Source: a virus
Taxonomy: Duplodnaviria; Caudoviricetes
DNA: 64,000 nt
IMG/VR virus record: IMGVR_UViG_641509473_000001
Location: 20,202 to 84,201 of that record
Strand: one strand, 5' to 3'
The translations under genes and the position numbers were made by a program. A model generated the notes under the pieces. That model did not search any database. It saw only the letters and a list, made by a program, of their open reading frames with translations, and was not told the DNA's origin. Shown in pieces: positions 21,279 through 48,094 of the stretch; within the stretch, counting starts at the first letter, position 1, and each line of letters opens with the position of its first letter.

Positions 21279-21348
21279 AGTAAAGGAATAAAGGGGGGGC
21301 TAGGGGTTTCCCCCATCGCCCCTCCTCTCTTCCGTTGCTCCCTACTAG

Positions 21349-21561
21349 CTACAAAACGGTAGGGAAGTCATCTTGCGCCCAGCAATACAAATCATAGACC
21401 GTATGCTGGGCTAGCGGGTTTCCGTCATCGCGGTATCCAACAAGACGGTTCCCCTCACGGCAGATATACACTCGTTCCCCGGAGTGGAGAACGAGCTCCA
21501 GTTGGCCCTCATGCCGCTTAACCTCCCTGGTCGCTCGCTTAATGAGCATAGCGGTATTCAT
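21349..21561 (-). CDS. Early hypothetical protein (70 aa)
   Basis: TTATTCCTTT-ATG. Confidence 0.8.
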   Translation of the reverse strand: MNTAMLIKRATREVKRHEGQLELVLHSGERVYICREGNRLVGYRDDGNPLAQHTVYDLYCWAQDDFPTVL

Positions 21562-21819
21562 AAAGGAATAAAAGCCTGCTAGATGGTAGGGGGAAATCCT
21601 ACAACCTAGCGGCGCGGGGTGTTGGGGGGCAACCCTCCAGACCAGGGGAGGGGGGGTGTTTTTCCACCACTCACACCCTTCACGCCACCCGCATTTCGCT
21701 TGGAAGGGAGGGGGTAGCTTCGGAAAATGCGCTTTTAAGTTCGGGCTTACGTACGTTGTATGACAAAAATCGCGTATTTCCTAGCAGATTTGACATCGTT
21801 TTGCGGGAAAATCCACGTT

Positions 21820-32545: not shown

Positions 32546-32546
<1 letters not shown>

Positions 32547-33085: not shown

Positions 33086-36000
33086 ATGGACCTGGAGAGA
33101 TACGCCATCGTTGTTTCCGCGGCGGTTGAGGCCGACGAGCTGGTGCTGGACCTGGACAAGTCCACCTTGGAGGAGCTGGAAGCCAAGCTCAACCAGGAGT
33201 TGGCGGGTACGGACCAGGTGGGCGAGCAAGCGGGCAAGGAGCTAGCCGAGGGCTTGGAGCGCGGCGCGGTGGAGGGCCTGGACGTTCGTCAGGTCCTGGC
33301 CAAGCTCAAGGCGGCCCTAAAAGGCGAAGTGCGCGAGCTGGCCACGGAAGAGGTCAAGGCTCTCCGCGCCGCCATCCAGCACGCCTTAGGCGTAGAGCTG
33401 GACGACAACGCCAAGCGCCAGTTGGCGGAAAGCGCCAAGCTTCTTGACCGCATCATTGAATCCGCCACCCGCAACCAGAGCCTCACGGTCAAGCTTCGGT
33501 TTGACGCCGACCGGAGCGCCCTGCTTACCGCGGAGCGCTTAGCGGACGCTTATCTAAACCGGATTAGAGAAGCTCTAAAGCAAGACAAAAGCTCTCCTCT
33601 TTACCAGGCGTTTAGCGCCTTGGCTAAGGGTACGGGGGAGAAGCTATCCCCGGACGAGGCCAAGTTCAGGGCCGGTCTATTCGCCGACGTTCGCGACCGC
33701 TTCTTGGCCCTCCTCAAGCAGGACCTGCAGAGCTACATTGCCGACCAGCTCAAACGCGGACACGCCGTTGGCGATATTAAACTGCCAGACACTCAAGCGA
33801 TACTTAGCGAAGCTGGTCTGCCCACCTTGAAGCAGGCCCTGCTCTTGAGCCGGGCGGTGGACCTGGACGCGAACAACCGGGCTAAGCTGGCCAAAGACCT
33901 CGGCCAGTTTATGCCCGAAGTGGCTCAGGTGTTAAAGGCCCCTGAAAAAGGCGCAAGTTGGGAAGAAATCAACGCCGTGGTGCGTGAGGCCAAGAAGGCC
34001 ATCCACGACGCGGAGGAAGCGCGTAGAGTCGCCCTCTCGCTTAGGAGCGTAACCAAGGAGGGCAACAAACCTTTCGCCCAGCAAACGGGACGGTTCCACA
34101 CGATAGAACTTCAGGAGGAAGGCTCTCCCGACGAGTTTCAGGAGCTTTTGCGCCTTCAGGCCAGCACTCAAGGCCATGTAGACGAAACCACCTTGGCTAG
34201 GCTTGTGGTCCAGAAGCGGGCCACCAAGGCCATCCTTAAGAAGCTTTTGGAGACTGCCGACCGCCCGGAGGAGCAGGCCGTTTGGCGGGCGGCCATTGAG
34301 CGGTTGGTTATCGGCAACACGGCGTACGATTTGAAGGACGACGAGAGCTTCGCCAAGCTCATAGAGCTAGCGAAGAAACACCCGTTAGAGAAAGTGGTTA
34401 AGAACGTCCGGGAAGTGCAGTTCTCCGAGAAGGTAACCCTAAGCGACAAGTACGCGTTTGTACCCGCCTCTAACCAGGGGCGAATCTTCCTAAGCCACCT
34501 CCGGCGGGAGAACATCTACCGCACGCCCACGCAACGGCCTTTGAGCCTTAAGGTGGCGGAAGAGGGCGAAGGGGTTCGCCTAAAAGAGATGGAGGAGAAG
34601 GCGCTAGGCGACGGCGCCTTGGGCATCTTGCGTCCCCAGTCCTTGGGGTTGCCGGAGGACTACACCGGGGTAGTGCAGGTTCGCGGCGAGCTCGCGGACC
34701 CGGAGGGGAACGTCTACGCCGGGCTCAAGGGCACGGTCATCGTAGACCCTAGGGCCAAGGAGGATTTCCTCAACCTGAACGACCTTTACCGCGGGGACAC
34801 CGTGGTAGACGGCAAGAAGTACACCAAGGAAGAGGTGGACGCCCTCATACGGGAGAAGCTCAAGACGGGAGCGCTCCAGCTCAACCTCGGCATTCACCGC
34901 GTGTCCACGGTAGAGGAAGCCAAGGTGGGCAAGCAGGTCTTCCTGCGGCACATGGGCGGGGTGCCCTTCAACCGCGGGCGCATCTCCCCGTCCGAGGCCG
35001 CCAAGTGGGCGGCTCAGGCCAAGGAGCTCAAGTTCCTCCCCATGATTGCCGGTAGGGAGATGGGCCTCTCCCACTACCAGCAAATCGCCACCTTGGCCAA
35101 GACCTTTGGCGTGGAGGTGGACGAGGGCCAGTACTCTATGGCCGCGTCCCACACCGCCTACAAGGAGCTTGACCCGGAAATCTACCGCCTGCTGGAAGAG
35201 GGAGTGGAGCTTGACGCGGAAGGACGCCCCATCGTCCCCATCGTCATCGGCAAGGAAATGGCCGCCAAGCTCGGTTTGAAGGAAGGGGACATCGCCTTCA
35301 CCTTCCGCAACCCGGTGATGGGCCACGGCGGGGCGCTACTGCAGGCCCGCGTCGCCGCCATCCGCGACCGCCTGAACGCGGTGGTGGTTAACCAGGAGTA
35401 CGCCAAGAGCACGGGCGTGGACTTTGACGGGGATACCCTGGTAGTCCTGCCCAAGGGTCTACCCGTGGACCCGCACCGCCTGGAGGTCTTCCAGACCCTG
35501 ATGGCCCACGCCGGTCTGGCCGGAGGACGTAAGGGCGGAGGTTCGGTAGAGCCCTCTCCTGGAGAGCTACGCTTCAAGGAACAACTTGAAGTGTACGACA
35601 AGGTTCTCGCTCGGCTAAGCAAGTCCCGCTTGGCCGCGGAGCTACGCAACGCCGGGGTGGAGGACCTGAGCAACCCCTTTGAGGTGGTGCGCCAGCTAGA
35701 ATCCTTGGGCGAAGAGGAGCTTCTCAAAGCGTTCAAGGGGTACTTGCGGAAAGGCTTCGCCAAGGAGCTTGGCTTGGACCTGAAGAGCGAAGAGGACCGC
35801 GCCCGGCTCAACCAGTACCTTTTTGAGGGTTTCCTGGACTACCGCAAGCAGTTCCAGGACCCAAGGCGGGTCTACAAGAAGCTTCCCCTCATGCCCTCCG
35901 CCGCTTTAGCCGCTTCTTTACTCCAGGTGGAGGCCCACAAGAAGGAGTACGACCCCTCGGACCCCGTGGCCTTGGCCGCGGGCCAGCTCACCACGTCCTT

Positions 36001-39000
36001 CCTCGGCCTATCGGAAAAGCTAGCCCAGGATTTGGAAACCTCTATAGACTTTCCCAAGTTGGCCGAAGCCATTCGCGCGTACAACCAAGCGTATTCGTCT
36101 GGAAATGAAGAGCAGGTAGCGAAGGCCAGGGCCGAGCTAGTGAAGGTGCTTAACGACCCGACCGTTCAAAAGTTCTCCCTGAGCAACCTGCTTTACCAAA
36201 TCATCACCGACCGGAAGAAGCGGGACTACAGCTTGCGGGTGCGTACCGAAAGCGGAAAGACGTACGAGTACCGAAACCTGTACGCGGTGCTTAACCGCTT
36301 GATGCAGAACCTTCCCGTAGAAGAAGTGGCCGATACGGTTTATGACGCTTCTGGACAGGCCGTAGAGGAAAGGGTTCCGCTAAAGCAAAGCGCTACAAGG
36401 TCGTTGGTGAAGGGGCTCTTGGACCTTGCTTCCGGTAAGGTGAAGGAGGACCCGGATGGCACCGTGGCCGAAGACTTGGCGGACCTTCCCGTATTCGGCG
36501 AGCTAGAACAGCTATACGGTTTAGTAGCCGACGCGAAATACGACCCTAGTAGCTTGAAGTCGGCTCTTGTCAAGCCGAACAAGCCGCAAGGTTCTTACGC
36601 TGAGATTACGACCCTCCTGTACCGGGGCATAGCTAACCAAGAGGGCTTGGCGGAAACCAACTTGCCTAGGGACGAGGTGGCTAGGCGCACCGCGGACCTT
36701 TTGGCGAAGATTGCCGACCTAAAGAGGGCGGTAGCTCTTGGTGAGCTTAGAGGGTACGAACACCTCAGCCGTCAAGAGCGCGAAGAAGTCCAAAAGTACT
36801 ACCTACGGATGCTTGAAGAGCAGGAAACGCTAGTCAAGCAGTCCTATAAAGAGCTTGTAGGCGGTACTTTGCGCTCCAAGCTTCTAGAAAGCGGGTTTAG
36901 GGAAAATCTTACCCAAGCCTTGGCCGGGACTAAGGTTTCCGAGAAGAATCTGCCGGAATACGTAGAGCGCCTTATCGGACGCATAACGGCGCCTGAAACG
37001 GACGCGGAGCTTAGCGGCAGGCTACAGCGCGCCCGCAAGAACCAGCGCTTGGGGGTGCTCAACAAAGCGCTAGCGGAAATCTTTAGCGATAAAGACCTTG
37101 GCGTTGGGGAAGCCCAAGCCAAGAAGGTTTTAGAAGTTCTTCGCAAAGCGGATTTGCTTGACCCTAGCTTGGCCCTCAAATCCGGGGGCATGCTGTCGGC
37201 GGCCATCCTCCCTGTGAGCCGCCTCTCTACCTACCTAGACCTTGTTCAGCCGCCGGTAGCGGAGATACCTGAAGGTATTCGCAATCCAGAGCTCCGCTCC
37301 TTGCTTGAAAGGCTCAGGGGCGTGTCCAGCCACAAGTTCTGGAGCGAGCACCAGACCTACGGCGCCTTGGTGGACCGCTTGGCCGAGCTTCTTGGCGAAG
37401 ACACGGAGGAAACTAAGCTCGCCAGCCGCTACGTAGCCGAAGCGTTCCTAGGCGCCGACGTGGCCTACCGCGTCCTCCCCCCCACGCACTTGGGCGAACT
37501 GCTCCAGCGTGAAGTGGCCATCAAGGGTCAGCGCGGTAAGGCCGTCAAAGCGCTTCTTGGCGACAAAGCGCCTACGCTAGGCAACTTCTTCCAGACGGTG
37601 TACAAACCGCTCTGGGAGACGTTGGGGAACCTGTTGCCCGTAATGGGCCTTGTGAAGCGCGATGGCCGGGTTACCAACGTGGGCTACGAAGCCTTAGGCC
37701 CGGCGTTGCTCATGCCGGAAAGCCTAGTAAAAGGGGATACGCTAGCTTACGCTGACATACTGGCCAAATACGTTCCTGACCTAGAAAAGGCGCAAGCCAA
37801 GTTTGGAAAGCGCGGCGGAGTATTGCTTGAGCGTGTAGCTACGGGATACCTGGACGAGCGCGGGAAGTTTGTGGAAAGCGAGGAGCGGCGCGAGCTAGCC
37901 AAGTACCGCTTAGTAGTTCAGGGGGTGAACCTCGGCAAGCGGGCGGAGAGCATCACCGCCCTTCTCACCGCCGCGGTCAACCGGGTGCTTCCCGCTTCCG
38001 CTACCGTGGACAACCTAACCCCGGTGGCCCGCTTCAACCGCGAGTTGGAGCGCACCCTGCTTCAGGCCATACAGGAGGCGGTGGAGGAGCCTACCAACCT
38101 AGGCGAAGCCAAGGCGTTGGAGGCTCTAGAGGAAGCCGTGAACCAGGTGCACCAGGCCGTGGCCGAGGAGGTGAAGGACCCCGCGGTCAAAGCCGCCCTA
38201 GAAGAGGCCAAGGAGCGAGTTTTGGAGGCGCTCAAGGCCGAAGCCGAGGCCAAAGAGCCCTCCGAGCTGGAAGAGGTCAAGGAGAAGGCCAGGGAGCTTC
38301 AGGAAGCTAAGGAGAAGAACCGCGAGCGCATCCGTAGCGCCGTGGCCCGGCTGAAAGCGGGCGAGGCCAAGCTCCAGCGCATCCAGGCGCTTAAAGAGAG
38401 GCAGGACCACATCACCGGGCGCGAGCCCGTAGACGAGAAGACCCTGGAAGCTCAAGCCGCCTTCGCCGCTAGGTACGCCACCGAGGCGGTGGAGCGCGGG
38501 CAGTACGACGCCGCCGAACAGATTTTGGAGTCCATGAAGGCCAACCCCACGGTCAACGCCAAGGCCGTAGAGGAAGCGCAACGCGTGGTGCGCAATCTGG
38601 CTTCCGCCTCTGGCGGGGGCGGCGGGGACCGTCCACCTTCCAAGCCTCCGGCTCCTCCTCCGCCTCCAGAACCTGAGGACGAGGAGCGCAAGCGTAAAGA
38701 GCGCAAGGTGGTCTACTGGCCTTCCGTCTTCTTCACCGAAAAAGAACGGCAAGCGCTTTTTGGTACGCCAGAAAAACCAAAAGACTTCTCTTGGAGCGTG
38801 TACCGCGGCCTTGTGCGCAACCAGGCCGAGGAAGAGCTCTTCCGAGCGATTTACCTCAACTCTCAACGCGGCCAGTCCTCTAAGCTCGGTTTTTACGACT
38901 TTGTCGTGGAATACCCGGAGGTGGCCAACGCGTTCTTCGGTCCTCTACGCTCCTTCGCTGGTCGTGAAACCGTATTGCCGGAAAAGTACTTAGCGAGCTT

Positions 39001-42000
39001 AGCCGAACAGTTCGACAACATCCTCTCGGCCTACGAAGCCGGGGATATGGACACCCTAACCAACCTGGTGGAAGACCTGAACATTAGCGTCAAACGAATG
39101 GAGAACGCGAGCAAGATTTTGGCCGACCTCCGCGAGTTCAAGCGCACAGGGGCTCTTCCCCACGGCAGGAACCTACACACGGCTTCCAGAGACGCCCTCT
39201 ACTACCGCCGTCTGATGAGCCTTGGTGGTAAGGAGCTTGAGCGGGCGGTGGAGGAGGGCGACCTGGACACCGTGCTCAAGGTGGCCGACCGGGCAAGGCA
39301 CGTGGAAGAGCGCATCAAGCTAGTGCAGAACGCCATCTCCAACTCCTTGGCCTTCATGCTTTCCAGCACGGTCATGGGCCTATTCGGCACCATTCAGCAG
39401 GAGTTCGTCAAGATTGACCGTCAGGCCAAGGCCGTGGCCGCGCTGGCCAACATGACTGGAAAAGAGGGAATCGGTAAGGGACTCTCTCAAGTGGCCAATG
39501 CTTTGAACGTGGCTCAGGAGGAGCTCACCCAGGCCCTGGTAGCCCTGAGCAAGGAAGGACATGACCCGGAGAAGGCCCGCGAGACCTTTGCCCGGCTCAA
39601 GGGGGTGCTGGACGCCACCGGCGAGGGAATGAACGAGCTGGTTCAGCTCTACAAGGAGCTGGACCGGGTAGGGGTGGAGTCCAAAGACGCGCTCATAAAG
39701 AGCGTGGTCAAGGAGCGGGTCTATCTTGGCGAGGCCGCCGAGGTGGTGAGCAAGCTCAACCTGAAGCCTGGAGAAGTAAAGGCTTCCGACCTGGACGAAC
39801 TGATTGTGGCCGCGAGCCGCTACTACCGCTCTGGGGTGCCCCTAGTCCTACCGGAGAGGGGCGAGGAGCGTAGAAAGCGCTTAGAAGAACTGGTTAAGGA
39901 AGGCCGGGCCATCGCGGCAAGCACCCCCGACGCCAAGACCGCCCTAGAGCCCACGGCCATGGAAAGGCTCTTGAAGCAGGCGGAGCGCACCATGCGGGCG
40001 GTGATTGAGGCCGCCAAACCCGCTCTAGCCGTTATTGGAAGCTTCCTCATGGCCTTGCTCAAGGTGTTGGAGGGCGTGGCGTACGTGCTTAGCACCCCCT
40101 TGGGCAAGGTGGCGGTGGTGGCGGGAACCATCTACGCCACCCTCCTCGCCATCATGCAAATCCAGAAGACCTTCCAGGTGGCGGAGTGGGTGAAGAGCCT
40201 GATGGTGGGCCTGCAGGAGCTAAACGCGGAGCTGGTGAGCTTCCTGAAGAACCTGGTGCGGGCCTTCACCGACGGGACCTTCGCCGAAGGGCTCAAGAAC
40301 GGGCCTTTCGGCTCCCTGGTGCAGACCCTGCTGGGGAGCCTCGAGGCCGTGTTCAACCACCCCAAGCTCCGCGAGTTTGGCGCGGCGTTAGAGAGGGTGG
40401 TGAAGGGCGCCTTTGAGCGCATCAAGGTTGGCGCGGGAAGCGTGGCCGACCTCTTGCGCCGCGTTATCTTGGGCGACCGCGAAATCCCCATCGGGTTTGT
40501 GGACCCAAGCTCGGCCCGTATGGCGGAGCTTGTTCGCAAGCATGGTTGGAAAGGCGTGGTTACCGGCGCTTTGCCCATCCTCGGCGTGTTGGGAGCCGGG
40601 GCGTACCAGATGGCCCACGCCGGGGACATGAACCCCTTCCAGCACCTCTTGGCCACGGCGGGCAACGCCCTCATGTTCGCCTCCATGTTCCTACCCGGTG
40701 GGGTCTTGGTGCGCGGCCTTACCTTGCCCTTGCGGGCCTTGGCCGGAGCGGCGGGCGCGGGGCTTGCCTTTGGCGTGCCCTTCTTGGCCGAAAGGACCAA
40801 GCGCGCTAGGGAAAGCGCCGAAGCCGATAAGGAGTTCAACCGGGCGTTGTCCATCGCGGGAGGACCGGAAGCCTTGGCCAAGGCCGTGGCGGGCGAGCTC
40901 ACCCCGGCTTTGGAAAAGGCCGGATACAACGCGGAAAACCTAGGTCAAATCCTGGACGCCGCCATGACCAAGGGAAGCGCCAAGGTGAAGAACGCGGCCC
41001 GCGAGGTCAAGGCTATGGCCGATAGCCTGGTGGGCGTGCGTCGGGTGATGGACGGCCTAGAGGAGCGCTCGCGTAAGTATGTTCAGGAATACGCTTCCTA
41101 CTTCCGCTTCGCCGGGTCCAACGCGTTCACCACGCTAACCGACGAGCAGTTGGAAGTCTTCAACCGCCTATTCACCACCGAGCTAACCCAAGAGCCCGCA
41201 TACCGGGTCTTGACCAAAGGGCTCAACCTCCGCCTGCAGGCCAAGATAGTTGAGCTATTCCAACAGAACTTCATAGAAGGACCTTTGGGGTTTATGGCAA
41301 GAGGTTTAGGCATAGACCAAGGCAAGCTACTGTACGAAGTGGCCAAAGTGCGCGAAGAAGCCCGCCAGTTTAGCATGGTGGACCAGGGCTACTTCCCGGA
41401 GCTCTTCAAGTCCGCTAGCTTGGACTACTACACCGGGAAGGGTCTGGACTACAACCTGAAGAACGCCCTGATGGTGGAGCTCCTGAGCGGGCTTCGCGGG
41501 GCCACGCTTGGCGAAACGCTTAAGCGCACCCAAAGCGCCCTTGGCTTGGTGGGGGCTAGCACCGGATTCGCTATCGGCACGGCCATTCTTCCCGGTGCCG
41601 GTAGCTTCCTGGGAGCCTTGCTTGGCTACCTGCTTAGCCAGTTCGCTAGCCCTTACGTAGCGGGCTTGGCTCAGAGGTACGGCAACCTGAACGTGGTGCG
41701 GCCCACGGGCTATCCATCCGCCTCCCTTAGGGCCGCGCTCTCCGTGGCCGGGGCTAGCGCTCAGGTAGAGGCCGACCTGGTGGACGCTTTGAAGACCGAC
41801 GGGGTAAAGAGGGCGGAAGCGGTATTCACCAGGGGCCTTTCCGCCTTCCGGGGCAAGGAGAGGGTGAAAGCCCGCCAAGCGGTGGAAGAGGCGGTCAAAG
41901 AGCTTAACGAATACGTGAGCACCGTGCAGAGCGGCCTGGTCAAGCAGTACACCCTCCAGGCCCTAGGCTTTGACTTCAAGGCCCGGCTTGAAGGCGGACA

Positions 42001-45000
42001 GGCGTACATGAGCCTTGGGGGTCTTGGTACCCGCCGGATACGCTCCCAGCTTCCTGAGCTGGAGGCCCAGTACCGCGCCGAGCTAGAGAAGCTTAACATT
42101 CTAGAAGCCGGGTTTAGTAAGTACCTCACCTTCACCCGCACAGACTCTGGGGTGGAGGTGCGCATACGGGAAGGGCAGGAACTTAACCCCATCGCGCAAG
42201 CGGCTTTCGCCCGCGCGGTGGAAGAGGTCAAGGACTTTGGTCTCAACCTCGCCAAGCTAAACGACCAGCTCAAGCAGGTGCGCTTTGCCGAGCTCTTAGA
42301 GCAAATCGCCATCAAGGCCGAAGAGGCGTTCGTGCGCCGGATTGGCCAGATTGGCCAAGGCGCGGAGCTGGTGGCCGGTAAGCTCGCGATGCCGGAAAGC
42401 CCCTTCAACGCCTTCCTCAACCGCCTGGTGCAGAATAACCTTAGGGACACCGGGCTCTTCGGGGACACCCGCGGCGGCCTTGCTTCGCCGCAAGGCTTCA
42501 ACCCGACCTCCGTGTTCGGCGGTAAGGTTACCCAGAAGCCTGGAGAAAAGCTTACCAACCCCAACGGCCACCGGGGGTACGACATCGCCCTGCCCGCGGG
42601 CTCGCCCGTGCGCTGGGGCAATGTTGAAGGCAAGGTGCTCCAGGTGGGCTACGAGGAGAAGGGCTACGGGAACTACGTGGCCGTCCAGGCCCCGGATGGG
42701 AGCGTTCACATCTTCGCTCACCTGCAGGAGCTTCCCAAGCTAAAGCCGGGGAGCGTGGTGAAGCCTGGTCAAGTGCTAGGCAAGTCTGGAAGCACGGGTA
42801 AGTCCACCGGGCCGCACCTGCACTACGAAATCCTCTCCCCCAACCGGGTGCCCGTGCGGGACGAGGCGGCTTTCCAGACATACGCTAGCCGCGTGTACGG
42901 CCAGAACGCCCTAAGCGTTCCCGCCTCGGAGTTCCTGCTAGACGAGAAGACCCTGAAGGAAGCCGAGCTCGCGTGGCGGAAGGTGATGGCGCCCTACTTC
43001 GCCGCCCCGTACGGCACCAGCGTGGAAAAGCGGCAGGAGCTTCTCAACCGGGCGGTTCAGGCGGCCCAGCAAGACGCCGCCATCCGCAAGGCGGCCCTCA
43101 CCGCCTTCCAGCAGGTGTACGAGCGGGCGCCTAAGAAGGGCGAGCTGGAAGCCTTCGTGCGCAAGGTGATTTACCTGAGCGCCGAAGGGCGGGACCTGGA
43201 CAACGCCCTAATCCTCGCCTTGGGCGAAGCCCAGGCTAGGGAGCGGGAAACGGCTATGGAGAAGGGCACGGTGCGGCTTGAGCGGGAGCTTTACGCCCCC
43301 GACAAGACCATCACCACCTTCCGCTTCCAGCGGGAGCAGGCGGAGAAGGAGTTTGAAGAGGCCAGGCTACGCGCCAAGACGGAGATGGAGACCGCCTTGG
43401 CCCAGCTGGACGCCCGCTACAAGACGGACCAGCGCCCGGTGGACCTAGCCTACCGCTCCGAACGCCAGCGCATTCTGGACCGCTACAAGACCGAGGTAGC
43501 TAGGCTTCAGCAAAACCTAGACGTCAAGCTAGCGGAGATTGCGTACAACGAACTGGTCTACCGGCTTGAAAGGGAAACGGCCCTCATCCGCAACGAACGG
43601 GAGCGCATCACCCGCCAGCTCAACGCGCTCAAAGCTTACCGGGAGCAGAACTGGAACAAGCTCAAGGCCAACACCAACGCCGAGCTAAACAAGCGGATTG
43701 AAGAGCTAGAGCTCCAACTGGCCATGATGGGGCCGGACTTCAGCGCTTTGCGTGAAGCCGAGGTCCGGGCCAACCTAGCCCAGATGCTCACCGGGCTAAA
43801 CCGTCCCAACCTTGCACTCAACGTTCAGAAACTGGCGGAAAGCGTCTACAACGATAGGGAACTCACCACCGAGCAAAAGCGCAAGCTTGGGGTCAACCCC
43901 TTCGCCACTTCCCTTCAGGACCTCCTGCTTCCCGGTGGCCTCATGGAGGGCTTCCTCGCCGCCGGGAAGGTGGCCGACAAGTACGCCGACACCACCCTTC
44001 CCAAGCTCCAGGCGTACAAGAACCGCCTGGCCTACGCCGCTTTGCAGGGCGCGGCTTACTTACTGGAAAGCCCGGTGGAGCTCGCCAACCTGCTCCAAAA
44101 GAAGGCGGAGTACATGGCCTCCGAGCTACGCAAGAACCCCAAGGTGGCCCAGGCGGCCAAGGCGCTTGGGGTGGGCGTGGAAGAGCTCGTGGGCTACGTG
44201 GCGGAGAACGTCTTGGGTGGAGCGCTTAGGGAAGGGTACGCTTTGGCCCGTCAGGCCAAGCAGAGCGCCCTACAGCTCAGGGTGCTTGGGGCCGCGGCCT
44301 CGCCCTTCTTCTCCGACCTCAGCGTGGACTTCCAGCGCCGCGCCTTGGAGATGGAGGCCGGGCTTGAAGACCTAAAGCGCTCGCCCCTTGACCTTAGCGG
44401 TACTGAACGCCTAGAGCTTATCAAGCGGGCGGAAGCGGCGGTCAAGCGGGCCAAGGAGGTCGCCCCCATCCTGGACGAGGTGGCCACCCGGTACAACCGT
44501 CTTCAGGTTGCGGCCTTCCGGGACAACCTGCAGGGCGGTAGGTTGCTAGAGGCCCAGCTCCAGTTCGCGGAAAGCGTGCTGGAAAATAAAAGGCTTTCCG
44601 ACGAGGAGCGCTACGGCGTTCTTCGCTCCTTCGGGCTTAGCCCGGAGGGCCTGAGGCAACAGATTCGGGACCTGGTCTTCCAGCGGCAAGCCGAAGTGCA
44701 GGACTTCGCCTTCCGCTTGCGCCAGCGGGAGCAGGCGGTGGCCCTCTTCCAGCGCTACGGCCTGTCGCCCAGCCTCGAGGCCGACCTCGCCCGCGCCGAG
44801 CTTGAAGTTCAAAGGGAGCGCGAAGCGGCCCTTCTAGAAGTTGCCCGCCAGAGGGAGCAGACCCTGAGGGCGGTGGACACCTACAGCACCCCCGAACTCC
44901 TAGCCGTGGCGCAAGAGCTAGGCGTGCCCGCCGAAGTGGAAGACCTTAGGACGGCGGTCAAGGAAGCGCTTAGGGAGAGGTTCGCCGCGCTTGAGCGGGC

Positions 45001-48000
45001 CATCCAGGCCGGAGCGGAGCAGGCTTCGCAAGAGGCGCGCTTCAAGGTGCTTCGCGGCAACCTGCAGAGCGGCCTCTTCGCCAACCGGGTGCAAGCGGCT
45101 AGTGAGCTTCTGACCAAAGAAATGTTCAAGCGGGCCCTCTCGCCCGAAGAGCTGAGGACCGCGAACTACCTGGCCCAGCTTGACGGGGCGAAGGTGGACG
45201 CGGCGCTCAAAGCCCTTTCTAGCGGCGAAGCGGTAAGCGACAAGCTCGGCAAGGAAGAGGCCGACCTTCTCGCCTTCCTTGGCGTGGACTTGAGGAACTT
45301 GGCCGTTACGCCTGAGCTTAAGAAGCTCCTGGAAAGCCCGTACCTAACCGACCGTAGGGCGGGACTGCAGGAGCTCTTGGCCAAGCTCAAGGGGGTTGTG
45401 GCGCCTGACGCCGAAGTCCTCACCGCCTTGCAACGGGAGCTCAACACCCTGACGGCTCAAGTGGGCGAAGCGGACCTGCAACGCGCGCTAGAGGACCTGA
45501 ACAACTCCGAAGTGTTGCGCTACGGAGTGGGCGGAACGCGGGCGGCCTTGGAGGCCGTGCGCCAGCAGATGGCCCTGGTCAGGATGGCCGCGGTCCGCAC
45601 GGGCCTTCCCGTGGAAGGTTTGGAAACCCTGAGCGAGGAGCAGGTGGAAGCCCTGGCCAAGAAGCTAAACCTGAACACGGACGCGGTGAGGTCCTTGGTT
45701 AAGCTTTACCGGGACGTGCGGCTCAAGGTGCAGGGCCTGGAGCGGGAAGTGTCTATGAACGAGTACCTCCGCCCGGCGGACAGGCTCCTCTTCCGCTACG
45801 AGCGCCTTGGGGTGGACCTGGCCTACGCCGACATCGCCGCTAAGGTTCAGGCGGAGGAGGGCTTGTTTGGCGGGATGCAGGAGGAGCTCTTCCGGCTCGC
45901 GGGTGGCAAGGTGGATTACCAGAGCCTGCTCGGCCTTAGCCCCAACGAGCTTAGCGAGCTCTTCGGCGTGGCCCCGGAAGTGGCCCAAAAGATTCTAGAG
46001 CTAGCTAGGGCCTTGGACGCCCTTAAGCGCCAGTTGGAAGACGACAAAGTGGCCCAGAGCGTGGAGAACCTAGCTAGGGTCATGGCGGAAGTCTCCCGCA
46101 TGCTGGACCGGGCTTCTCAGACCGGCAACTTCGCTCAGGTACTTGAAGCGCGTCAAGCCGCGTTCACCAAGTATTCCGATACCTTGGAGGAAGGCTTGGC
46201 CCGGCTTGGCATCAAGGAAGAGGACCTGTACCTGACCGACGACGAGCTAAAAGCTAGAGGTCTAGGCAACCGCCTGCCGGAGGTGGAGAGGCTCAGGCAG
46301 TTGGCCGGGCTCAAGCGTCAGGCTAGGGTGGACGCCCTTAGCCTAGAGCTTCTAACGGTGCAGAACGTTGAAGGCGCTAAGGAAGTCCTGCAGAAATACG
46401 GCGTGGACATGAACGCGGCGATGGCCGCGGCGCCTGGTACGGAAGGGGCTAGGCTCCGGGAGACCTTGATGGAGAACCCCATCATCAAGCGGCTCCTAGA
46501 CCTCGGCAGCTTCGCCTATGGCCGTAGGCTAGGCGAGCTGGCCGCGAGCGGAAACACCGAGGCCATCCTGCAGGAGTTTGAACGGTTGGTGCAGGCTTTG
46601 GACGACTCCAGGTTCGGCAACCTCAAGGCCATGTACCGGAAGGGCCTGGACCCCGGAAGCTTCGCGCAACTGGCCAAGATGACCGGGGTGGACCCGGATA
46701 CCGCCAATAGGCTTGACCTCTTGACCTTGGCCTACGCTACCGGGCTTTCCAGAAAGGTGCAGGAAGCGGGGGACGAGATTGCGCGGCGCTACGACGTGAT
46801 GGCTCCCCTCTTCAACGGCCCATTTAGCGCCGCTAGGCTGGAGATTTTAAAACTGCAGGAGCTGTATGCTAAGTATAGCGAAAGCGCGGAAGAGGCGGCC
46901 AAGGAAGGTCGCTCGCCTGAAGCCGAGGCGTTCAAGGAGCAGGCCGAACGGGTGTTCAAAGAACTGCTTGATGCGCAAAAGCGCTATAGCCTCCTCATCG
47001 TGCGCGAGTGGAACGCCCTCTTGGCTAGCATGGAAGCCGCCCTCAAGGGAAGCTTGAAGGAAGCGGCCTCCGCCATCCTGTCCGAGGTGCTCTTCAACCG
47101 CTCCGGCAAGGAACTCGCTAAGGTGGACCGGAGGTACAAGGACGAGATAGGGTTCACCGAAAGCGAACTGGAAGAGGCCAAAAGGCAAAAGCAGGCGTTG
47201 GAGGAAAAGCTACGGCAAGGCGGCCTGAGCCAAGACGAGTACATCCGCACCAAGGAGCTTTACGAGTACTACACCCGCAAAGTCCAAGAGTTGGAGGACA
47301 AAGTCAAGCGGGTGAAGTTTGAGTGGGAGCAGGCTAGGCGGGAAGTGGAAAGCTTGGCGGAGGTTTTGGACCGCATCATCCAAAAGCTTGGCGACGCCAT
47401 TCTAGACAAGTTTATCGGAATGCTCGTGGACATGCTGTTTGAAGGGCTTAAGGTTAGCTGGAGCGGAAGCGGAGGCGCTACCGCTAGCGCGGGTAGCTCT
47501 GCCCTGGCGCCGCAAGGCGTGGCTACCCAGTCCTCCGGCATCACGGCGCAAAGCGTGCAGGCGGGCGCCACCACCGCCGCGGCGGTTACCGCTAGTGCGG
47601 TTAAGCCTCAAGGAAGCGCCGCGCCACAAGCTATACCGCCAGAGCTAGGTATGGCCTTCACCGGGTTCGCCGTGGGAAGCAAGATGGGCGACGGGGACAA
47701 CCTAGCCGCGGGTATAGGCGGGACCATGCTAGGCGTAGCCGGGCAGTCCGCAATGGGTGCGCTAGTCGCCGGAGCGGGTCTGGAAGGGGCCATGATGGCC
47801 GGACTTGGCGTTCTCGCCAACCCCGTGGCGTGGCTAGCCGTGGGCGCCGGAGTGGCTCTTGGCGCGGCCATAAGCTCTCACCTAAGGGCGGACGAGTTCA
47901 ACCGCAAGAACGCCGGTAGCGCCACCTACGGCCTGTACAATCCGGCGGACCAGGCTAGGCGCGGAGCGAAGCTTCAGGTCAAGGTGGACGTGAAGTCCGA

Positions 48001-48094
48001 CCTAGACCCCGACAAGGTAGCGGAAGAGGCCAAGAAGGCCATCGCGCAAGAAATGCGCAAAGAGGAGTACCGGGGAGGGCTAGAAAAGCTGTAA
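33086..48094 (+). CDS. gp96: Giant tape-measure protein (5,002 aa) with N-terminal virion RNA polymerase and internal M23 peptidase
   Basis: Position after chaperone; long helical body with TM segments; GDGALG (34607), DFDGD (35420-35434); HRGYD...HLHYE M23 motif (~42565-42835). Confidence 0.93.
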   Translation: MDLERYAIVVSAAVEADELVLDLDKSTLEELEAKLNQELAGTDQVGEQAGKELAEGLERGAVEGLDVRQVLAKLKAALKGEVRELATEEVKALRAAIQHALGVELDDNAKRQLAESAKLLDRIIESATRNQSLTVKLRFDADRSALLTAERLADAYLNRIREALKQDKSSPLYQAFSALAKGTGEKLSPDEAKFRAGLFADVRDRFLALLKQDLQSYIADQLKRGHAVGDIKLPDTQAILSEAGLPTLKQALLLSRAVDLDANNRAKLAKDLGQFMPEVAQVLKAPEKGASWEEINAVVREAKKAIHDAEEARRVALSLRSVTKEGNKPFAQQTGRFHTIELQEEGSPDEFQELLRLQASTQGHVDETTLARLVVQKRATKAILKKLLETADRPEEQAVWRAAIERLVIGNTAYDLKDDESFAKLIELAKKHPLEKVVKNVREVQFSEKVTLSDKYAFVPASNQGRIFLSHLRRENIYRTPTQRPLSLKVAEEGEGVRLKEMEEKALGDGALGILRPQSLGLPEDYTGVVQVRGELADPEGNVYAGLKGTVIVDPRAKEDFLNLNDLYRGDTVVDGKKYTKEEVDALIREKLKTGALQLNLGIHRVSTVEEAKVGKQVFLRHMGGVPFNRGRISPSEAAKWAAQAKELKFLPMIAGREMGLSHYQQIATLAKTFGVEVDEGQYSMAASHTAYKELDPEIYRLLEEGVELDAEGRPIVPIVIGKEMAAKLGLKEGDIAFTFRNPVMGHGGALLQARVAAIRDRLNAVVVNQEYAKSTGVDFDGDTLVVLPKGLPVDPHRLEVFQTLMAHAGLAGGRKGGGSVEPSPGELRFKEQLEVYDKVLARLSKSRLAAELRNAGVEDLSNPFEVVRQLESLGEEELLKAFKGYLRKGFAKELGLDLKSEEDRARLNQYLFEGFLDYRKQFQDPRRVYKKLPLMPSAALAASLLQVEAHKKEYDPSDPVALAAGQLTTSFLGLSEKLAQDLETSIDFPKLAEAIRAYNQAYSSGNEEQVAKARAELVKVLNDPTVQKFSLSNLLYQIITDRKKRDYSLRVRTESGKTYEYRNLYAVLNRLMQNLPVEEVADTVYDASGQAVEERVPLKQSATRSLVKGLLDLASGKVKEDPDGTVAEDLADLPVFGELEQLYGLVADAKYDPSSLKSALVKPNKPQGSYAEITTLLYRGIANQEGLAETNLPRDEVARRTADLLAKIADLKRAVALGELRGYEHLSRQEREEVQKYYLRMLEEQETLVKQSYKELVGGTLRSKLLESGFRENLTQALAGTKVSEKNLPEYVERLIGRITAPETDAELSGRLQRARKNQRLGVLNKALAEIFSDKDLGVGEAQAKKVLEVLRKADLLDPSLALKSGGMLSAAILPVSRLSTYLDLVQPPVAEIPEGIRNPELRSLLERLRGVSSHKFWSEHQTYGALVDRLAELLGEDTEETKLASRYVAEAFLGADVAYRVLPPTHLGELLQREVAIKGQRGKAVKALLGDKAPTLGNFFQTVYKPLWETLGNLLPVMGLVKRDGRVTNVGYEALGPALLMPESLVKGDTLAYADILAKYVPDLEKAQAKFGKRGGVLLERVATGYLDERGKFVESEERRELAKYRLVVQGVNLGKRAESITALLTAAVNRVLPASATVDNLTPVARFNRELERTLLQAIQEAVEEPTNLGEAKALEALEEAVNQVHQAVAEEVKDPAVKAALEEAKERVLEALKAEAEAKEPSELEEVKEKARELQEAKEKNRERIRSAVARLKAGEAKLQRIQALKERQDHITGREPVDEKTLEAQAAFAARYATEAVERGQYDAAEQILESMKANPTVNAKAVEEAQRVVRNLASASGGGGGDRPPSKPPAPPPPPEPEDEERKRKERKVVYWPSVFFTEKERQALFGTPEKPKDFSWSVYRGLVRNQAEEELFRAIYLNSQRGQSSKLGFYDFVVEYPEVANAFFGPLRSFAGRETVLPEKYLASLAEQFDNILSAYEAGDMDTLTNLVEDLNISVKRMENASKILADLREFKRTGALPHGRNLHTASRDALYYRRLMSLGGKELERAVEEGDLDTVLKVADRARHVEERIKLVQNAISNSLAFMLSSTVMGLFGTIQQEFVKIDRQAKAVAALANMTGKEGIGKGLSQVANALNVAQEELTQALVALSKEGHDPEKARETFARLKGVLDATGEGMNELVQLYKELDRVGVESKDALIKSVVKERVYLGEAAEVVSKLNLKPGEVKASDLDELIVAASRYYRSGVPLVLPERGEERRKRLEELVKEGRAIAASTPDAKTALEPTAMERLLKQAERTMRAVIEAAKPALAVIGSFLMALLKVLEGVAYVLSTPLGKVAVVAGTIYATLLAIMQIQKTFQVAEWVKSLMVGLQELNAELVSFLKNLVRAFTDGTFAEGLKNGPFGSLVQTLLGSLEAVFNHPKLREFGAALERVVKGAFERIKVGAGSVADLLRRVILGDREIPIGFVDPSSARMAELVRKHGWKGVVTGALPILGVLGAGAYQMAHAGDMNPFQHLLATAGNALMFASMFLPGGVLVRGLTLPLRALAGAAGAGLAFGVPFLAERTKRARESAEADKEFNRALSIAGGPEALAKAVAGELTPALEKAGYNAENLGQILDAAMTKGSAKVKNAAREVKAMADSLVGVRRVMDGLEERSRKYVQEYASYFRFAGSNAFTTLTDEQLEVFNRLFTTELTQEPAYRVLTKGLNLRLQAKIVELFQQNFIEGPLGFMARGLGIDQGKLLYEVAKVREEARQFSMVDQGYFPELFKSASLDYYTGKGLDYNLKNALMVELLSGLRGATLGETLKRTQSALGLVGASTGFAIGTAILPGAGSFLGALLGYLLSQFASPYVAGLAQRYGNLNVVRPTGYPSASLRAALSVAGASAQVEADLVDALKTDGVKRAEAVFTRGLSAFRGKERVKARQAVEEAVKELNEYVSTVQSGLVKQYTLQALGFDFKARLEGGQAYMSLGGLGTRRIRSQLPELEAQYRAELEKLNILEAGFSKYLTFTRTDSGVEVRIREGQELNPIAQAAFARAVEEVKDFGLNLAKLNDQLKQVRFAELLEQIAIKAEEAFVRRIGQIGQGAELVAGKLAMPESPFNAFLNRLVQNNLRDTGLFGDTRGGLASPQGFNPTSVFGGKVTQKPGEKLTNPNGHRGYDIALPAGSPVRWGNVEGKVLQVGYEEKGYGNYVAVQAPDGSVHIFAHLQELPKLKPGSVVKPGQVLGKSGSTGKSTGPHLHYEILSPNRVPVRDEAAFQTYASRVYGQNALSVPASEFLLDEKTLKEAELAWRKVMAPYFAAPYGTSVEKRQELLNRAVQAAQQDAAIRKAALTAFQQVYERAPKKGELEAFVRKVIYLSAEGRDLDNALILALGEAQARERETAMEKGTVRLERELYAPDKTITTFRFQREQAEKEFEEARLRAKTEMETALAQLDARYKTDQRPVDLAYRSERQRILDRYKTEVARLQQNLDVKLAEIAYNELVYRLERETALIRNERERITRQLNALKAYREQNWNKLKANTNAELNKRIEELELQLAMMGPDFSALREAEVRANLAQMLTGLNRPNLALNVQKLAESVYNDRELTTEQKRKLGVNPFATSLQDLLLPGGLMEGFLAAGKVADKYADTTLPKLQAYKNRLAYAALQGAAYLLESPVELANLLQKKAEYMASELRKNPKVAQAAKALGVGVEELVGYVAENVLGGALREGYALARQAKQSALQLRVLGAAASPFFSDLSVDFQRRALEMEAGLEDLKRSPLDLSGTERLELIKRAEAAVKRAKEVAPILDEVATRYNRLQVAAFRDNLQGGRLLEAQLQFAESVLENKRLSDEERYGVLRSFGLSPEGLRQQIRDLVFQRQAEVQDFAFRLRQREQAVALFQRYGLSPSLEADLARAELEVQREREAALLEVARQREQTLRAVDTYSTPELLAVAQELGVPAEVEDLRTAVKEALRERFAALERAIQAGAEQASQEARFKVLRGNLQSGLFANRVQAASELLTKEMFKRALSPEELRTANYLAQLDGAKVDAALKALSSGEAVSDKLGKEEADLLAFLGVDLRNLAVTPELKKLLESPYLTDRRAGLQELLAKLKGVVAPDAEVLTALQRELNTLTAQVGEADLQRALEDLNNSEVLRYGVGGTRAALEAVRQQMALVRMAAVRTGLPVEGLETLSEEQVEALAKKLNLNTDAVRSLVKLYRDVRLKVQGLEREVSMNEYLRPADRLLFRYERLGVDLAYADIAAKVQAEEGLFGGMQEELFRLAGGKVDYQSLLGLSPNELSELFGVAPEVAQKILELARALDALKRQLEDDKVAQSVENLARVMAEVSRMLDRASQTGNFAQVLEARQAAFTKYSDTLEEGLARLGIKEEDLYLTDDELKARGLGNRLPEVERLRQLAGLKRQARVDALSLELLTVQNVEGAKEVLQKYGVDMNAAMAAAPGTEGARLRETLMENPIIKRLLDLGSFAYGRRLGELAASGNTEAILQEFERLVQALDDSRFGNLKAMYRKGLDPGSFAQLAKMTGVDPDTANRLDLLTLAYATGLSRKVQEAGDEIARRYDVMAPLFNGPFSAARLEILKLQELYAKYSESAEEAAKEGRSPEAEAFKEQAERVFKELLDAQKRYSLLIVREWNALLASMEAALKGSLKEAASAILSEVLFNRSGKELAKVDRRYKDEIGFTESELEEAKRQKQALEEKLRQGGLSQDEYIRTKELYEYYTRKVQELEDKVKRVKFEWEQARREVESLAEVLDRIIQKLGDAILDKFIGMLVDMLFEGLKVSWSGSGGATASAGSSALAPQGVATQSSGITAQSVQAGATTAAAVTASAVKPQGSAAPQAIPPELGMAFTGFAVGSKMGDGDNLAAGIGGTMLGVAGQSAMGALVAGAGLEGAMMAGLGVLANPVAWLAVGAGVALGAAISSHLRADEFNRKNAGSATYGLYNPADQARRGAKLQVKVDVKSDLDPDKVAEEAKKAIAQEMRKEEYRGGLEKL

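What the first reader, a model, noticed from the sequence alone, without database searches (positions are those of the whole stretch)
33086..38683. RNA polymerase built into the N-terminus of the tail tape-measure protein
Seen in sequence: the 5,002-aa TMP has GDGALGIL (residue ~508), QVR, LKG, FRNP and DFDGD (residues 779-783, nt 35420-35434). A Gly/Pro linker (SGGGGGDRPPSKPPAPPPPP, ~residue 1842) precedes the usual helical/TM TMP body. Known: DxDGD preceded by an RxP motif is the Mg-binding core of two-barrel RNAPs. Inference: the polymerase is stored unfolded in the tail lumen, ejected with the DNA and refolds to transcribe the first phage genes. I recall this being reported for P23-45 gp96, so it may not be new for this phage.
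Basis: partly seen in the sequence, partly recalled or inferred. Interest (0 to 1): 0.97.

Follow-up and report, generated by a model that had tools for sequence, protein, structure and literature searches.

The report
Published tape-measure-fused phage RNA polymerase
This is the giant tail tape-measure protein gp96 of Thermus phage P23-45, whose front part is a working RNA polymerase injected with the DNA; it is a striking arrangement, but it was already published with activity tests and crystal structures in 2024.

Summary
ORF 33086-48094 (+) encodes 5,002 aa, with GDGALGIL (508), QVR (531), LKG (547), FRNP (740), DFDGD (779-783, nt 35420-35434) and a Gly/Pro linker (1842-1861).

The window is bases 20202-84201 of an 84,201-bp virus record, the length given for P23-45. 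Residues 1-1124 are letter-identical, where printed, to PDB 8H2M/8H2N, "gp96 RNA polymerase from P23-45 phage".

Chaban et al. 2024 (PMC10770324) report:
- RNA synthesis by N-terminal fragments, with a minimal active region of 327-1124
- full-size gp96 in virions
- ChIP-seq on pre-early genes
- a clamp-less two-barrel structure

Checks made here:
- The motifs are invariant in six TMP-fused lineages, down to 31% identity.
- The domain is homologous to the phage's second polymerase gp64, at window 15089-16945 (-): BLASTP E 9e-7, hhalign 97.2%.

Two side observations: the AT-rich pre-early promoter motif contains the start codon, which suggests leaderless mRNAs; and each unit is preceded by a conserved hairpin followed by a U-run.

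Verdict: real and remarkable, but already known.

The parts
33086..48094 (+). gp96, tail tape-measure protein with N-terminal virion RNA polymerase, 5,002 aa
   Evidence: ORF and translation. PHROG 23188 'tail length tape measure protein' matched over its full 5002 positions. Same length and DFDGD position (779-783) as in PMC10770324.
33086..34063 (+). Residues 1-326: N-terminal extension, dispensable for activity
   Evidence: The paper says the shortest active fragment is 327-1124 and that the flanking regions are mostly disordered in the 1-1200 crystal. No Pfam hit.
34064..36457 (+). Residues 327-1124: minimal active two-barrel RNA polymerase (vRNAP)
   Evidence: Residues 327-1124 are letter-identical to PDB 8h2n_A, and 1-1200 match 8h2m_A (the 8h2m alignment is printed up to about residue 957). 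Foldseek names these entries 'gp96 RNA polymerase from P23-45 phage'. Activity is reported in the paper.
34607..34750 (+). Residues 508-555: GDGxxGI...GVVQVR...KGTV block (the second barrel, DPBB-B side)
   Evidence: Positions. Invariant in 6 of 6 fused homologues. Aligns with gp64 residues 112-157, BLASTP E 9e-7. The only stretch of my AF2 model with pLDDT around 70-80. [quoted passage not shown]
34922..35122 (+). Residues 613-679: short connector in place of the clamp
   Evidence: The paper says it is disordered in the crystals and half as long as in QDE-1 and phi14:2 gp66, giving a flat, clamp-less enzyme. Not tested here.
35306..35434 (+). Residues 741-783: RNP...DFDGD, the metal-binding barrel (DPBB-A)
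   Evidence: Positions. R741 N742 P743, D779, D781, G782 and D783 are invariant in 6 of 6. Aligns with gp64 NRRP...DYDGD. The paper names 779-DFDGD-783 as the metal-binding sequence.
36458..38608 (+). Residues 1125-1841: unassigned, charged and helix-prone spacer between polymerase and linker
   Evidence: No Pfam family and no usable protein-atlas hit. Composition. The paper resolved only two helices, 1125-1162.
38609..38668 (+). Residues 1842-1861: Gly5 / poly-Pro linker
   Evidence: Position. Most of its G and P positions are invariant in 5 full-length homologues.
40001..40165 (+). Residues 2306-2360: pair of hydrophobic, membrane-type segments in the TMP body
   Evidence: Kyte-Doolittle 19-residue window of 1.6 or more. 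The paper's Fig. 1a legend mentions membrane domains.
42566..42838 (+). Residues 3161-3251: M23 metallopeptidase domain
   Evidence: Pfam PF01551, E 1e-21, 77.3 bits against a cut-off of 28.7. H3162, D3166 and H3244 are invariant. Peptidase PHROGs also hit.
47759..47866 (+). Residues 4892-4927: C-terminal Gly/Ala-rich hydrophobic segments
   Evidence: Hydropathy scan.
15089..16945 (-). gp64, non-virion RNA polymerase; paralogue and first-wave product of the vRNAP
   Evidence: phmmer against PDB: 8f72_A (1432 bits) and 8f5m_A. Foldseek names 8f72 'Phage P32 gp64- RNA polymerase'. Homology to the vRNAP domain.
17386..21571 (-). Cluster of 11 AT-rich motifs, TTATTCCTTTATGG-like (a 12th lies at 12868-12881): the pre-early promoters assigned to the vRNAP
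   Evidence: 12 matches at up to 2 mismatches, all on the - strand; 0.21 expected, and 0 of 100 shuffles reach 12. The paper assigns an AT-rich motif upstream of 14 TSSs to gp96. That my motif is theirs is inferred from its position and composition; their logo is in a figure I could not see.
17398..21121 (-). Nine conserved GC-rich hairpins, each followed by a U5-7 run and preceding a promoter motif (terminator-like)
   Evidence: Repeat families D1, D3 and D10. 9 of the 10 folded stretches give a 6-12 bp hairpin directly followed by the U-run, -14.2 to -19.3 kcal/mol. The paper reports a 26-nt conserved motif at seven TTSs near the left end; equivalence is inferred.

Best explanation
The ORF is gene 96 of Thermus thermophilus phage P23-45. 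One 5,002-residue polypeptide is both the tail-length tape measure and, in its N-terminal quarter, a single-chain two-barrel (double-psi beta-barrel) DNA-dependent RNA polymerase.

Shown by others on this same sequence:
- Fragments 1-1200, 1-1360 and 1-1540 extend an RNA primer; 1-1050 does not; the minimal active piece is 327-1124.
- Five minutes after infection it sits on a roughly 9-kb block of pre-early genes (59-77).
- Its crystal structure is a flat, clamp-less two-barrel enzyme.

Shown here:
- The window protein is that protein.
- The catalytic motifs are invariant across six fused lineages.
- The domain is a paralogue of gp64, encoded 16 kb upstream.
- The pre-early block carries 11 copies of an AT-rich motif, each followed by a short ORF and preceded by a hairpin plus U-run.

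Inferred mechanism: the TMP lies in the roughly 4.5-nm tail lumen in an elongated, non-native state. On infection the C-terminal body (membrane segments, M23 peptidase) leaves first and opens a channel through the envelope. The N-terminal polymerase leaves last, next to the leading DNA end. It takes up its flat active fold while still tethered through the Gly/Pro linker. It then transcribes the AT-rich-promoter units as they enter, including gene 64, whose product takes over early and middle transcription.

The confidence given (0.9) is for the identification and the polymerase function, which I put near 0.98. The inferred storage and delivery steps are about even odds.
For: Identity:
- The window is G000:C1:20202-84201 of an 84,201-bp record, the length given for the non-redundant P23-45 genome in PMC11437467 (passage).
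- phmmer against PDB gives 8h2m_A (2580 bits, query 1-1200) and 8h2n_A (1743 bits), letter-identical where printed. Foldseek descriptions read 'gp96 RNA polymerase from P23-45 phage'.
- The same figures appear in the paper: 5,002 residues and 779-DFDGD-783.

Function: PMC10770324, Results and Discussion.

My own tests:
- Motif positions and the chance estimate.
- Invariance in 6 of 6 fused homologues down to 30.6% identity.
- BLASTP against gp64: E 9e-7 for the GDG/QVR/KG block and E 0.003 for NRxP...D[FY]DGD.
- hhalign of the fused family against the gp64 family: probability 97.2%, E 3.4e-11 over 306 columns spanning both barrels.
- Foldseek of my weak model still ranks 8f72 and 8f5m (gp64/gp62 RNAP) next after the self hits, E 6e-4.
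- In the phage records, 7 of 7 with the RNAP module also hold this TMP body and a gp64 homologue. Three of them are annotated 'tape measure protein and virion RNAP'.
- Promoter motif: 12 hits against 0.21 expected.

TMP body: M23 domain, hydrophobic segments, and position after the head and tail genes.
Against: - Library searches do not recognise a polymerase: 0 Pfam families at E up to 0.1 on residues 1-1866, and PHROGs gives only 'tail length tape measure protein'.
- My AlphaFold2 model from a 5-sequence alignment is poor (mean pLDDT 53.2, pTM 0.28; the DFDGD region is below 50). It therefore gives no independent view of the fold. TM-scores to 8h2m are only 0.23-0.24.
- The main text reports no active-site mutant of gp96. 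Promoter-specific initiation by gp96 was inferred from ChIP-seq, TSS mapping and motifs, not reconstituted.
- The state of the polymerase inside the tail, the order of exit and the tethering are all inference. The authors say packaging and pre-early transcription 'remain to be elucidated'.
Confidence: 0.9

Rival explanations
1. The polymerase is real, but it is not stored unfolded. Its sub-domains stay folded and are merely un-docked into a string ('caterpillar', about 19 nm long and 3.5 nm wide) that fits the 4.5-nm lumen and snaps together after ejection. This rivals only the storage and refolding step.
For: The authors proposed it in the preprint (10.1101/2022.12.01.518664, passage seen). 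The flat, clamp-less shape is argued to help passage through the tail channel. The tube's inner diameter is about 45 A (PMC10034513 passage).
Against: The hypothesis is absent from the published Discussion. Ruler arithmetic: an 800-nm tail (preprint abstract) over 5,002 residues is 1.60 A per residue, near the 1.5 A rise of an alpha-helix (textbook value, recalled) only if the polymerase residues are counted like the rest. The body alone (3,141 aa) would need 2.55 A per residue. If several TMP copies share the lumen, as is usual in siphophages (recalled, not tested), three 3.5-nm strings side by side would not fit in 4.5 nm.
Confidence: 0.35
2. The main job of the fused polymerase is mechanical. 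By transcribing while anchored at the envelope pore, it pulls the leading part of the genome into the cell, and RNA output is secondary.
For: The authors hypothesise transcription concomitant with translocation through the TMP pore, and note that other virion RNAPs are fused to large proteins, possibly for such coupling. All 12 promoter motifs point the same way (- strand), away from the strand-switch at about 21.6-21.9 kb. The densely spaced units span only about 4 kb next to that junction.
Against: No experiment addresses DNA entry. Each unit ends in a hairpin plus U-run, which would repeatedly release a pulling polymerase. The pre-early block encodes gp64, so the RNA output clearly matters.
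Confidence: 0.15
3. The DFDGD and neighbouring motifs are a chance occurrence in a very long, low-complexity tape-measure protein, and there is no polymerase.
For: D.DGD arises in 68 of 2000 shuffles of a protein this long. No Pfam polymerase domain is detected.
Against: The sequence is identical to a crystallised, enzymatically active fragment. The motifs are invariant at 31% overall identity. There is significant profile homology to gp64 RNAP.
Confidence: 0.01

Closest known systems
P23-45 gp96 TMP-fused virion RNAP (PDB 8H2M, 8H2N; Chaban et al. 2024, Nat Commun 15:317)
   Same: It is the same protein: 5,002 aa, DFDGD at 779-783, residues 1-1124 identical where the alignments are printed, in an 84,201-bp genome.
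   Different: Nothing found. Residues 1125-1200 of the 8h2m alignment were cut from the print-out and were not inspected letter by letter.
TMP-RNAP fusions of P74-26, G20c, the P23-45_stolb1-3 phages and TSP4, plus unnamed database proteins P0003, P0004, P0005
   Same: The same architecture and length (4,976-5,029 aa) with all catalytic motifs. Identity over 327-1124 by MAFFT: 99.1% (P0002, named P74-26), 66% (P0003 and P0004), 44% (P0005), 31% (TSP4). By tblastn: G20c 98.4%, stolb phages 82-83%.
   Different: They are orthologues in other phages. P0005 (on a 124-kb contig) is not among the 7 phage records and may be a further lineage.
P23-45 gp64 / P74-26 gp62 non-virion RNAP (PDB 8F72, 8F5M)
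   Same: A paralogous two-barrel single-chain RNAP sharing the GDGxxGI, QVR, KG, NRxP and D[FY]DGD blocks. It is encoded in the same window at 15089-16945 (-).
   Different: It is free-standing (618 aa), absent from virions, has a clamp and crab-claw shape, and uses GC-rich promoters (paper).
crAss-like phage phi14:2 gp66 virion RNAP and Neurospora QDE-1 (single-chain two-barrel RNAPs)
   Same: Both barrels lie in one chain. gp66 is also a virion-delivered enzyme embedded in a very large protein (paper).
   Different: No sequence similarity was detected here: the PDB phmmer search returned only the two gp96 entries. They have a clamp and other elements lacking in gp96, and they are not fused to a tape measure.
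Coliphage N4 virion RNAP
   Same: A polymerase packaged in the virion, injected, and used for the first phage genes. The paper cites N4-related phages for fusions to large proteins.
   Different: N4 vRNAP is a T7-like single-subunit enzyme with an unrelated fold, carried in the capsid of a short-tailed phage (recalled, not tested here).

Membership tests
Two-barrel (double-psi beta-barrel) RNA polymerases | DxDxD metal-binding motif in the beta-prime-like barrel (DPBB-A) | tested here: met
   DFDGD at 779-783 is the only D.DGD in the protein. D779, D781 and D783 are invariant in 6 of 6 fused homologues. It aligns with DYDGD of gp64.
Two-barrel (double-psi beta-barrel) RNA polymerases | RxP-type motif about 35-40 residues before the DxDxD (as in beta-prime NRAP...NADFDGD; the beta-prime wording is recalled) | tested here: met
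   R741-N742-P743 lies 38 residues before D779, is invariant in 6 of 6, and aligns with gp64 NRRP.
Two-barrel (double-psi beta-barrel) RNA polymerases | Second barrel (DPBB-B, beta-like) with conserved basic residues, N-terminal to DPBB-A in single-chain forms | tested here: met
   The block 508-555, with invariant R533 and K548, is homologous to gp64 112-157 (E 9e-7; hhalign). The paper places DPBB-B before the 613-679 connector. Which residues contact substrate was not tested.
Two-barrel (double-psi beta-barrel) RNA polymerases | Double-psi beta-barrel fold, bridge helix and trigger loop seen in three dimensions | tested here: inconclusive
   My AF2 model is too poor to judge (pLDDT 53.2). 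The feature is nevertheless met by the solved structures of the identical sequence, 8H2M and 8H2N, as described in the paper. I did not inspect coordinates.
Two-barrel (double-psi beta-barrel) RNA polymerases | Template-dependent RNA synthesis | not testable with these tools
   Reported for fragments 1-1200, 1-1360, 1-1540 and 327-1124; the 1-1050 fragment is inactive.
Two-barrel (double-psi beta-barrel) RNA polymerases | Match to a curated RNAP sequence family (Pfam) | tested here: not met
   0 families at E up to 0.1 for residues 1-1866 and for gp64. This is not a defining feature of the fold class. It only shows that the libraries have not absorbed these enzymes.
Siphophage tail tape-measure proteins | Very long, helix-prone protein with hydrophobic segments and often a peptidase domain, encoded in the tail module after the tail-tube genes | tested here: met
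   PHROG 23188 TMP; M23 domain; hydrophobic segments at 2306-2360, 2828-2846 and 4892-4927. Upstream ORFs include the major head protein (28306-29535) and a 'minor tail protein' PHROG (31500-32546).
Siphophage tail tape-measure proteins | Length proportional to tail length (about 1.5 A per residue) | tested here: met
   5,002 aa x 1.5 A = 750 nm, against the 800-nm tail quoted in the preprint abstract, i.e. 1.60 A per residue. This is arithmetic only: the tail length comes from the literature and the 1.5 A rule is recalled.
Siphophage tail tape-measure proteins | Tail-assembly chaperone pair with programmed frameshift just upstream | not tested
   ORFs 31500-32546 and 32546-33040 precede the gene. 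No frameshift analysis was done.

The most novel reading that the evidence does not exclude
Two linked ideas. (1) The polymerase residues themselves act as ruler. They would lie in the tail lumen as an extended, largely non-native chain, because 800 nm over 5,002 aa (1.6 A per residue) fits the helical rule only if they are counted. The enzyme would then fold for the first time into its active form in the host cytoplasm while tethered to the envelope pore. (2) Its promoters are unusual in containing the start codon, so the pore-tethered enzyme would make leaderless mRNAs one short unit at a time as the DNA end enters. Neither point is stated in the main text of the 2024 paper that I could read.
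Probability: 0.3. Interest if true: 0.55.

Novelty: already known. Interest (0 to 1): 0.15.

Why it matters
A transcription enzyme fused to a tail-length ruler is one of the oddest protein fusions in phage biology. It explains how a phage whose early genes the host polymerase cannot read gets started, and it shows how far the two-barrel RNA polymerase fold can be stripped down: no clamp, flat shape. All of that was established in 2024 for this exact phage, so the finding adds no new biology.

What remains open and testable:
- how an 800-residue beta-rich enzyme is kept in a 4.5-nm tube
- whether it counts toward tail length
- whether it works while tethered to the entry pore

A practical point: Pfam and PHROGs still fail to label either P23-45 polymerase. 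gp64 is called 'head protein', so automated annotation of related phages will miss both enzymes.

Tried and rejected
- **Structure prediction.** AlphaFold2 on residues 327-1124 with a 5-row alignment gave pLDDT 53.2 and pTM 0.28. I rejected it as evidence for the fold. Its Foldseek run found the self entries mainly through sequence; 4 matches had E at or below 0.001, all gp96 or gp64/gp62.
- **Alignment A2.** It mixed the fused proteins with gp64-like proteins and mis-aligned the DFDGD column, so it was not used. Separate alignments A3 and A4 were compared by hhalign instead.
- **Pfam and PHROGs.** No polymerase family was found.
- **The search for related loci.** Four scans found no relative: viral contigs with the single protein and with A3, genome contigs with A3, and metagenome contigs with A3. 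The tool notes that records of, or very near, the window's own genome may be left out.
- **Representative search of 1.84 billion proteins.** 5 proteins had E at or below 0.001. Two are TMP fusions. Three are 948-1002-aa free-standing proteins that match only the GDG/QVR/KG block but also carry DFDGD, and they align better with gp64.
- **The listing of cluster members.** It gave no names for P0003-P0006.
- **Protein atlas on residues 1125-1841.** No usable hit.
- **Ungapped terminator pattern.** It found only 4 sites because the loop length varies. The repeat families and the folds were used instead.
- **Papers.**
  - PMC13585406: passages only; nothing useful.
  - PMC5312081 and PMC7403470: passages only. 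They served only to give the PMC id of Berdygulova et al. 2011.
  - Berdygulova et al. 2011: not held. What I say about it is recalled or taken from the 2024 paper's summary.
  - PMC10770324: Methods and supplements were not read. The supplements (Supplementary Data 1 with TSS/TTS coordinates; Supplementary Figs 4, 5 and 7-11) could settle the leaderless question, the identity of my motifs with theirs, and whether active-site mutants were made.
- **The search of earlier findings.** Closed.
- **Chance explanation.** Considered and rejected (see rival explanations).

Full report
**1. What is in the sequence**

The window holds one open frame at 33086-48094 on the + strand: 5,002 codons, ATG start, no internal stop.
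- GDGALGIL at residues 508-515
- QVR at 531-533
- LKG at 547-549
- FRNP at 740-743
- DFDGD at 779-783 (nt 35420-35434)
- the Gly5/poly-Pro stretch at 1842-1861 (nt 38609-38668)

D.DGD occurs only once. QVR and LKG recur elsewhere in the protein, so they carry no weight alone. From composition, D.DGD is expected 0.03 times. It arose in 68 of 2000 shuffles, and with an R.P 25-45 residues upstream in 4 of 2000.

**2. Whose protein it is**

- The window is bases 20202-84201 of an 84,201-base virus record. PMC11437467 gives 84,201 bp as the non-redundant genome of Thermus phage P23-45 (passage).
- A phmmer search of residues 1-1866 against all PDB chains returned two sequences. 8h2m_A matched query 1-1200 (2580 bits) and 8h2n_A matched query 320-1124 (1743 bits). 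Both are letter-identical in the printed alignments, apart from the tag junction.
- Foldseek's library describes these entries as "gp96 RNA polymerase from P23-45 phage".
- Megablast against 50,697 phage records found 6 records. P74-26 is 97.8% identical and G20c 96.5%. The three P23-45_stolb phages, at about 79%, annotate the gene as "tape measure protein and virion RNAP".

**3. What is published**

The paper is Chaban et al., Nat Commun 2024;15:317 (PMC10770324). I read the outline and abstract, the Introduction, all of the Results, the Discussion, and some term searches. I did not read the Methods or the supplements. It reports:
- The authors searched virion proteins for DxDxD and found 779-DFDGD-783 in the 5,002-residue gp96.
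- Fragments 1-1200, 1-1360 and 1-1540 extend an RNA primer on a scaffold, while 1-1050 does not. The shortest active piece is 327-1124.
- ChIP-seq at 5 min places gp96 on a 9-kb block (genes 59-77) at the left genome end, and gp64 on a 49-kb region.
- 14 of 23 TSSs follow a strongly conserved AT-rich motif assigned to gp96. Seven follow a GC-rich motif assigned to gp64. Seven terminators near the left end share a 26-nt motif.
- Crystal structures show gp64 as a crab-claw and gp96 as a flat, clamp-less two-barrel enzyme, with residues 613-679 disordered.
- The authors hypothesise that the flat shape lets the enzyme pass the tail channel, and that it transcribes at the TMP pore while DNA enters. 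[quoted passage not shown] It also proposed a folded-sub-domain "caterpillar" of 19 x 3.5 nm inside a 4.5-nm channel. That sentence is not in the published Discussion.

No gp96 active-site mutant appears in the main text.

A search for later work ('gp96', 'vRNAP', 'Thermus', from 2024 on) listed 3 papers, none a follow-up on gp96.

**4. Independent checks made here**

*(a) Conservation.*
- The word-indexed search found 4 proteins of 4,976-5,027 aa.
- The exhaustive search of 1.84 billion representatives found 5 proteins at E of 0.001 or below. Two are fusions and three are 948-1002-aa free-standing proteins.
- tblastn found the module in 7 phage records, including TSP4 at 34% identity.
- In a MAFFT alignment of six fused proteins, 151 of 798 positions of 327-1124 are invariant. 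These include G508 D509 G510, G513, Q531 V532 R533, K548 G549, R741 N742 P743, D779, D781, G782 and D783.

*(b) Paralogy.*
- ORF 15089-16945 (-) is gp64: it matches PDB 8f72 and 8f5m.
- BLASTP of the vRNAP core against it aligns GDGALGIL with GDGIVGIF, QVR with QVR, LKG with WKG (E 9e-7), and FRNP...DFDGD with NRRP...DYDGD (E 0.003).
- hhalign of the fused-family alignment against a gp64-family alignment gives 97.2% probability, E 3.4e-11, over 306 columns.

*(c) Fold.* My AF2 model was poor (pLDDT 53.2) and proves nothing. The fold rests on the deposited structures.

*(d) Libraries.* Pfam sees nothing in residues 1-1866.

*(e) TMP body.* It has an M23 peptidase at 3161-3251, hydrophobic segments at 2306-2360, 2828-2846 and 4892-4927, and head and tail genes upstream.

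*(f) Co-occurrence.* The same 7 phage records hold the polymerase module, this TMP body and a gp64 homologue.

**5. The target DNA in the same window**

- A 14-nt motif, TTATTCCTTTATGG, occurs 12 times at up to 2 mismatches, always on the - strand, against 0.21 expected. Eleven copies lie between 17386 and 21571.
- Each unit is preceded by a conserved GC-rich hairpin and a U5-7 run. 9 of the 10 stretches folded do this, at -14.2 to -19.3 kcal/mol.
- These are most likely the paper's AT-rich promoters and its 26-nt terminator motif. I could not see the logos, so the equivalence is inferred.
- The ATG inside the motif opens an ORF of 36-212 aa in 12 of 12 copies.
- In the separately annotated P74-26 record there are 11 copies of the motif. 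In 7 the motif ATG is the annotated start codon. In 3 it lies in frame, 9-14 codons inside an annotated gene. In 1 it fits no gene.
- The pre-early mRNAs therefore probably have little or no leader. The words 'leaderless' and 'start codon' do not occur in the main text. A search for 'P23-45' with 'leaderless' found 3 papers, none making the point in the passages seen. The 2011 primer-extension paper is not held, so I cannot say this is unreported.

**6. How it most likely works**

*Shown by the paper:* the enzyme is active, travels in the virion as part of the whole TMP, and occupies the pre-early genes five minutes after infection. One of those genes encodes gp64.

*Inferred:* the TMP fills the roughly 45-A lumen in an elongated form. 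The C-terminal body, with its membrane segments and peptidase, exits first. The N-terminal polymerase exits last, beside the leading DNA end. It folds and transcribes short units while tethered.

The statement that siphophage TMPs sit with the C-terminus at the tip is recalled, not tested.

Ruler arithmetic favours counting the polymerase residues as ruler:
- 800 nm over 5,002 aa is 1.60 A per residue.
- The body alone would need 2.55 A per residue.

It rests on a literature tail length and a recalled rule, so I give it about even odds.

**7. Verdict**

The feature is real and biologically remarkable, but it is already known for this exact phage, with biochemistry, ChIP-seq, TSS mapping and crystal structures. 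Interest as a new finding is therefore low.

The residual open questions are:
- the storage state in the tail
- the ruler contribution of the polymerase residues
- tethered transcription at the pore
- leaderless promoter architecture

Noticed in passing
window 12868-12881 and 17386-21571 (- strand); L002 278-4636: The AT-rich pre-early motif TTATTCCTTTATGG ends in an ATG that opens an ORF of 36-212 aa in 12 of 12 window copies. P74-26 has 11 copies. In 7 the motif ATG is the annotated start codon; in 3 it lies in frame 9-14 codons downstream of the annotated start; in 1 it fits no gene. This leaves no room for a Shine-Dalgarno sequence, so the mRNAs are probably leaderless. The three longer P74-26 annotations (P74p67, p68, p71) may have over-extended starts.
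   Followed up: partly
window 17398-21121 (- strand): Nine sequence-conserved hairpins (RGGGC-loop-GCCCYC), each followed by U5-7, sit 20-45 nt upstream of the next promoter motif. Each short gene is thus its own promoter-to-terminator unit. They look like ordinary intrinsic terminators, although the paper calls the termination mechanism unusual.
   Followed up: partly
window 15089-16945 (-): The non-virion RNA polymerase gp64 is still labelled 'head protein' in PHROG 25317 and in RefSeq P74-26, 'capsid protein' in G20c, and 'Envelope glycoprotein gp62' or 'TPR_REGION domain-containing protein' in PDB molecule names. Pfam has no family for it.
   Followed up: no
proteins P0005 and P0006-P0008 (database hits, no locus): P0005 is a 4,976-aa TMP-polymerase fusion from a 124-kb contig. 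It is only 44% (MAFFT) to 49% (phmmer) identical in the polymerase core and is not among the 7 phage records. P0006-P0008 are 948-1002-aa free-standing gp64-like proteins with DFDGD and a long C-terminal extension. Their genomic context could not be fetched.
   Followed up: partly
window 33086-48094 (+): The 5,002-residue protein contains no cysteine at all.
   Followed up: no
window 21572-21857: A gene-free stretch of about 290 nt separates the - strand pre-early genes from the + strand genes that start at 21858. This strand switch may mark the physical genome end that enters the cell first. That is inference only.
   Followed up: no
window 36458-38608 (+): Residues 1125-1841, between the polymerase core and the Gly/Pro linker, match no Pfam family and gave no usable atlas hit. 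Yet many positions are invariant across five homologues. Their role is unknown.
   Followed up: partly
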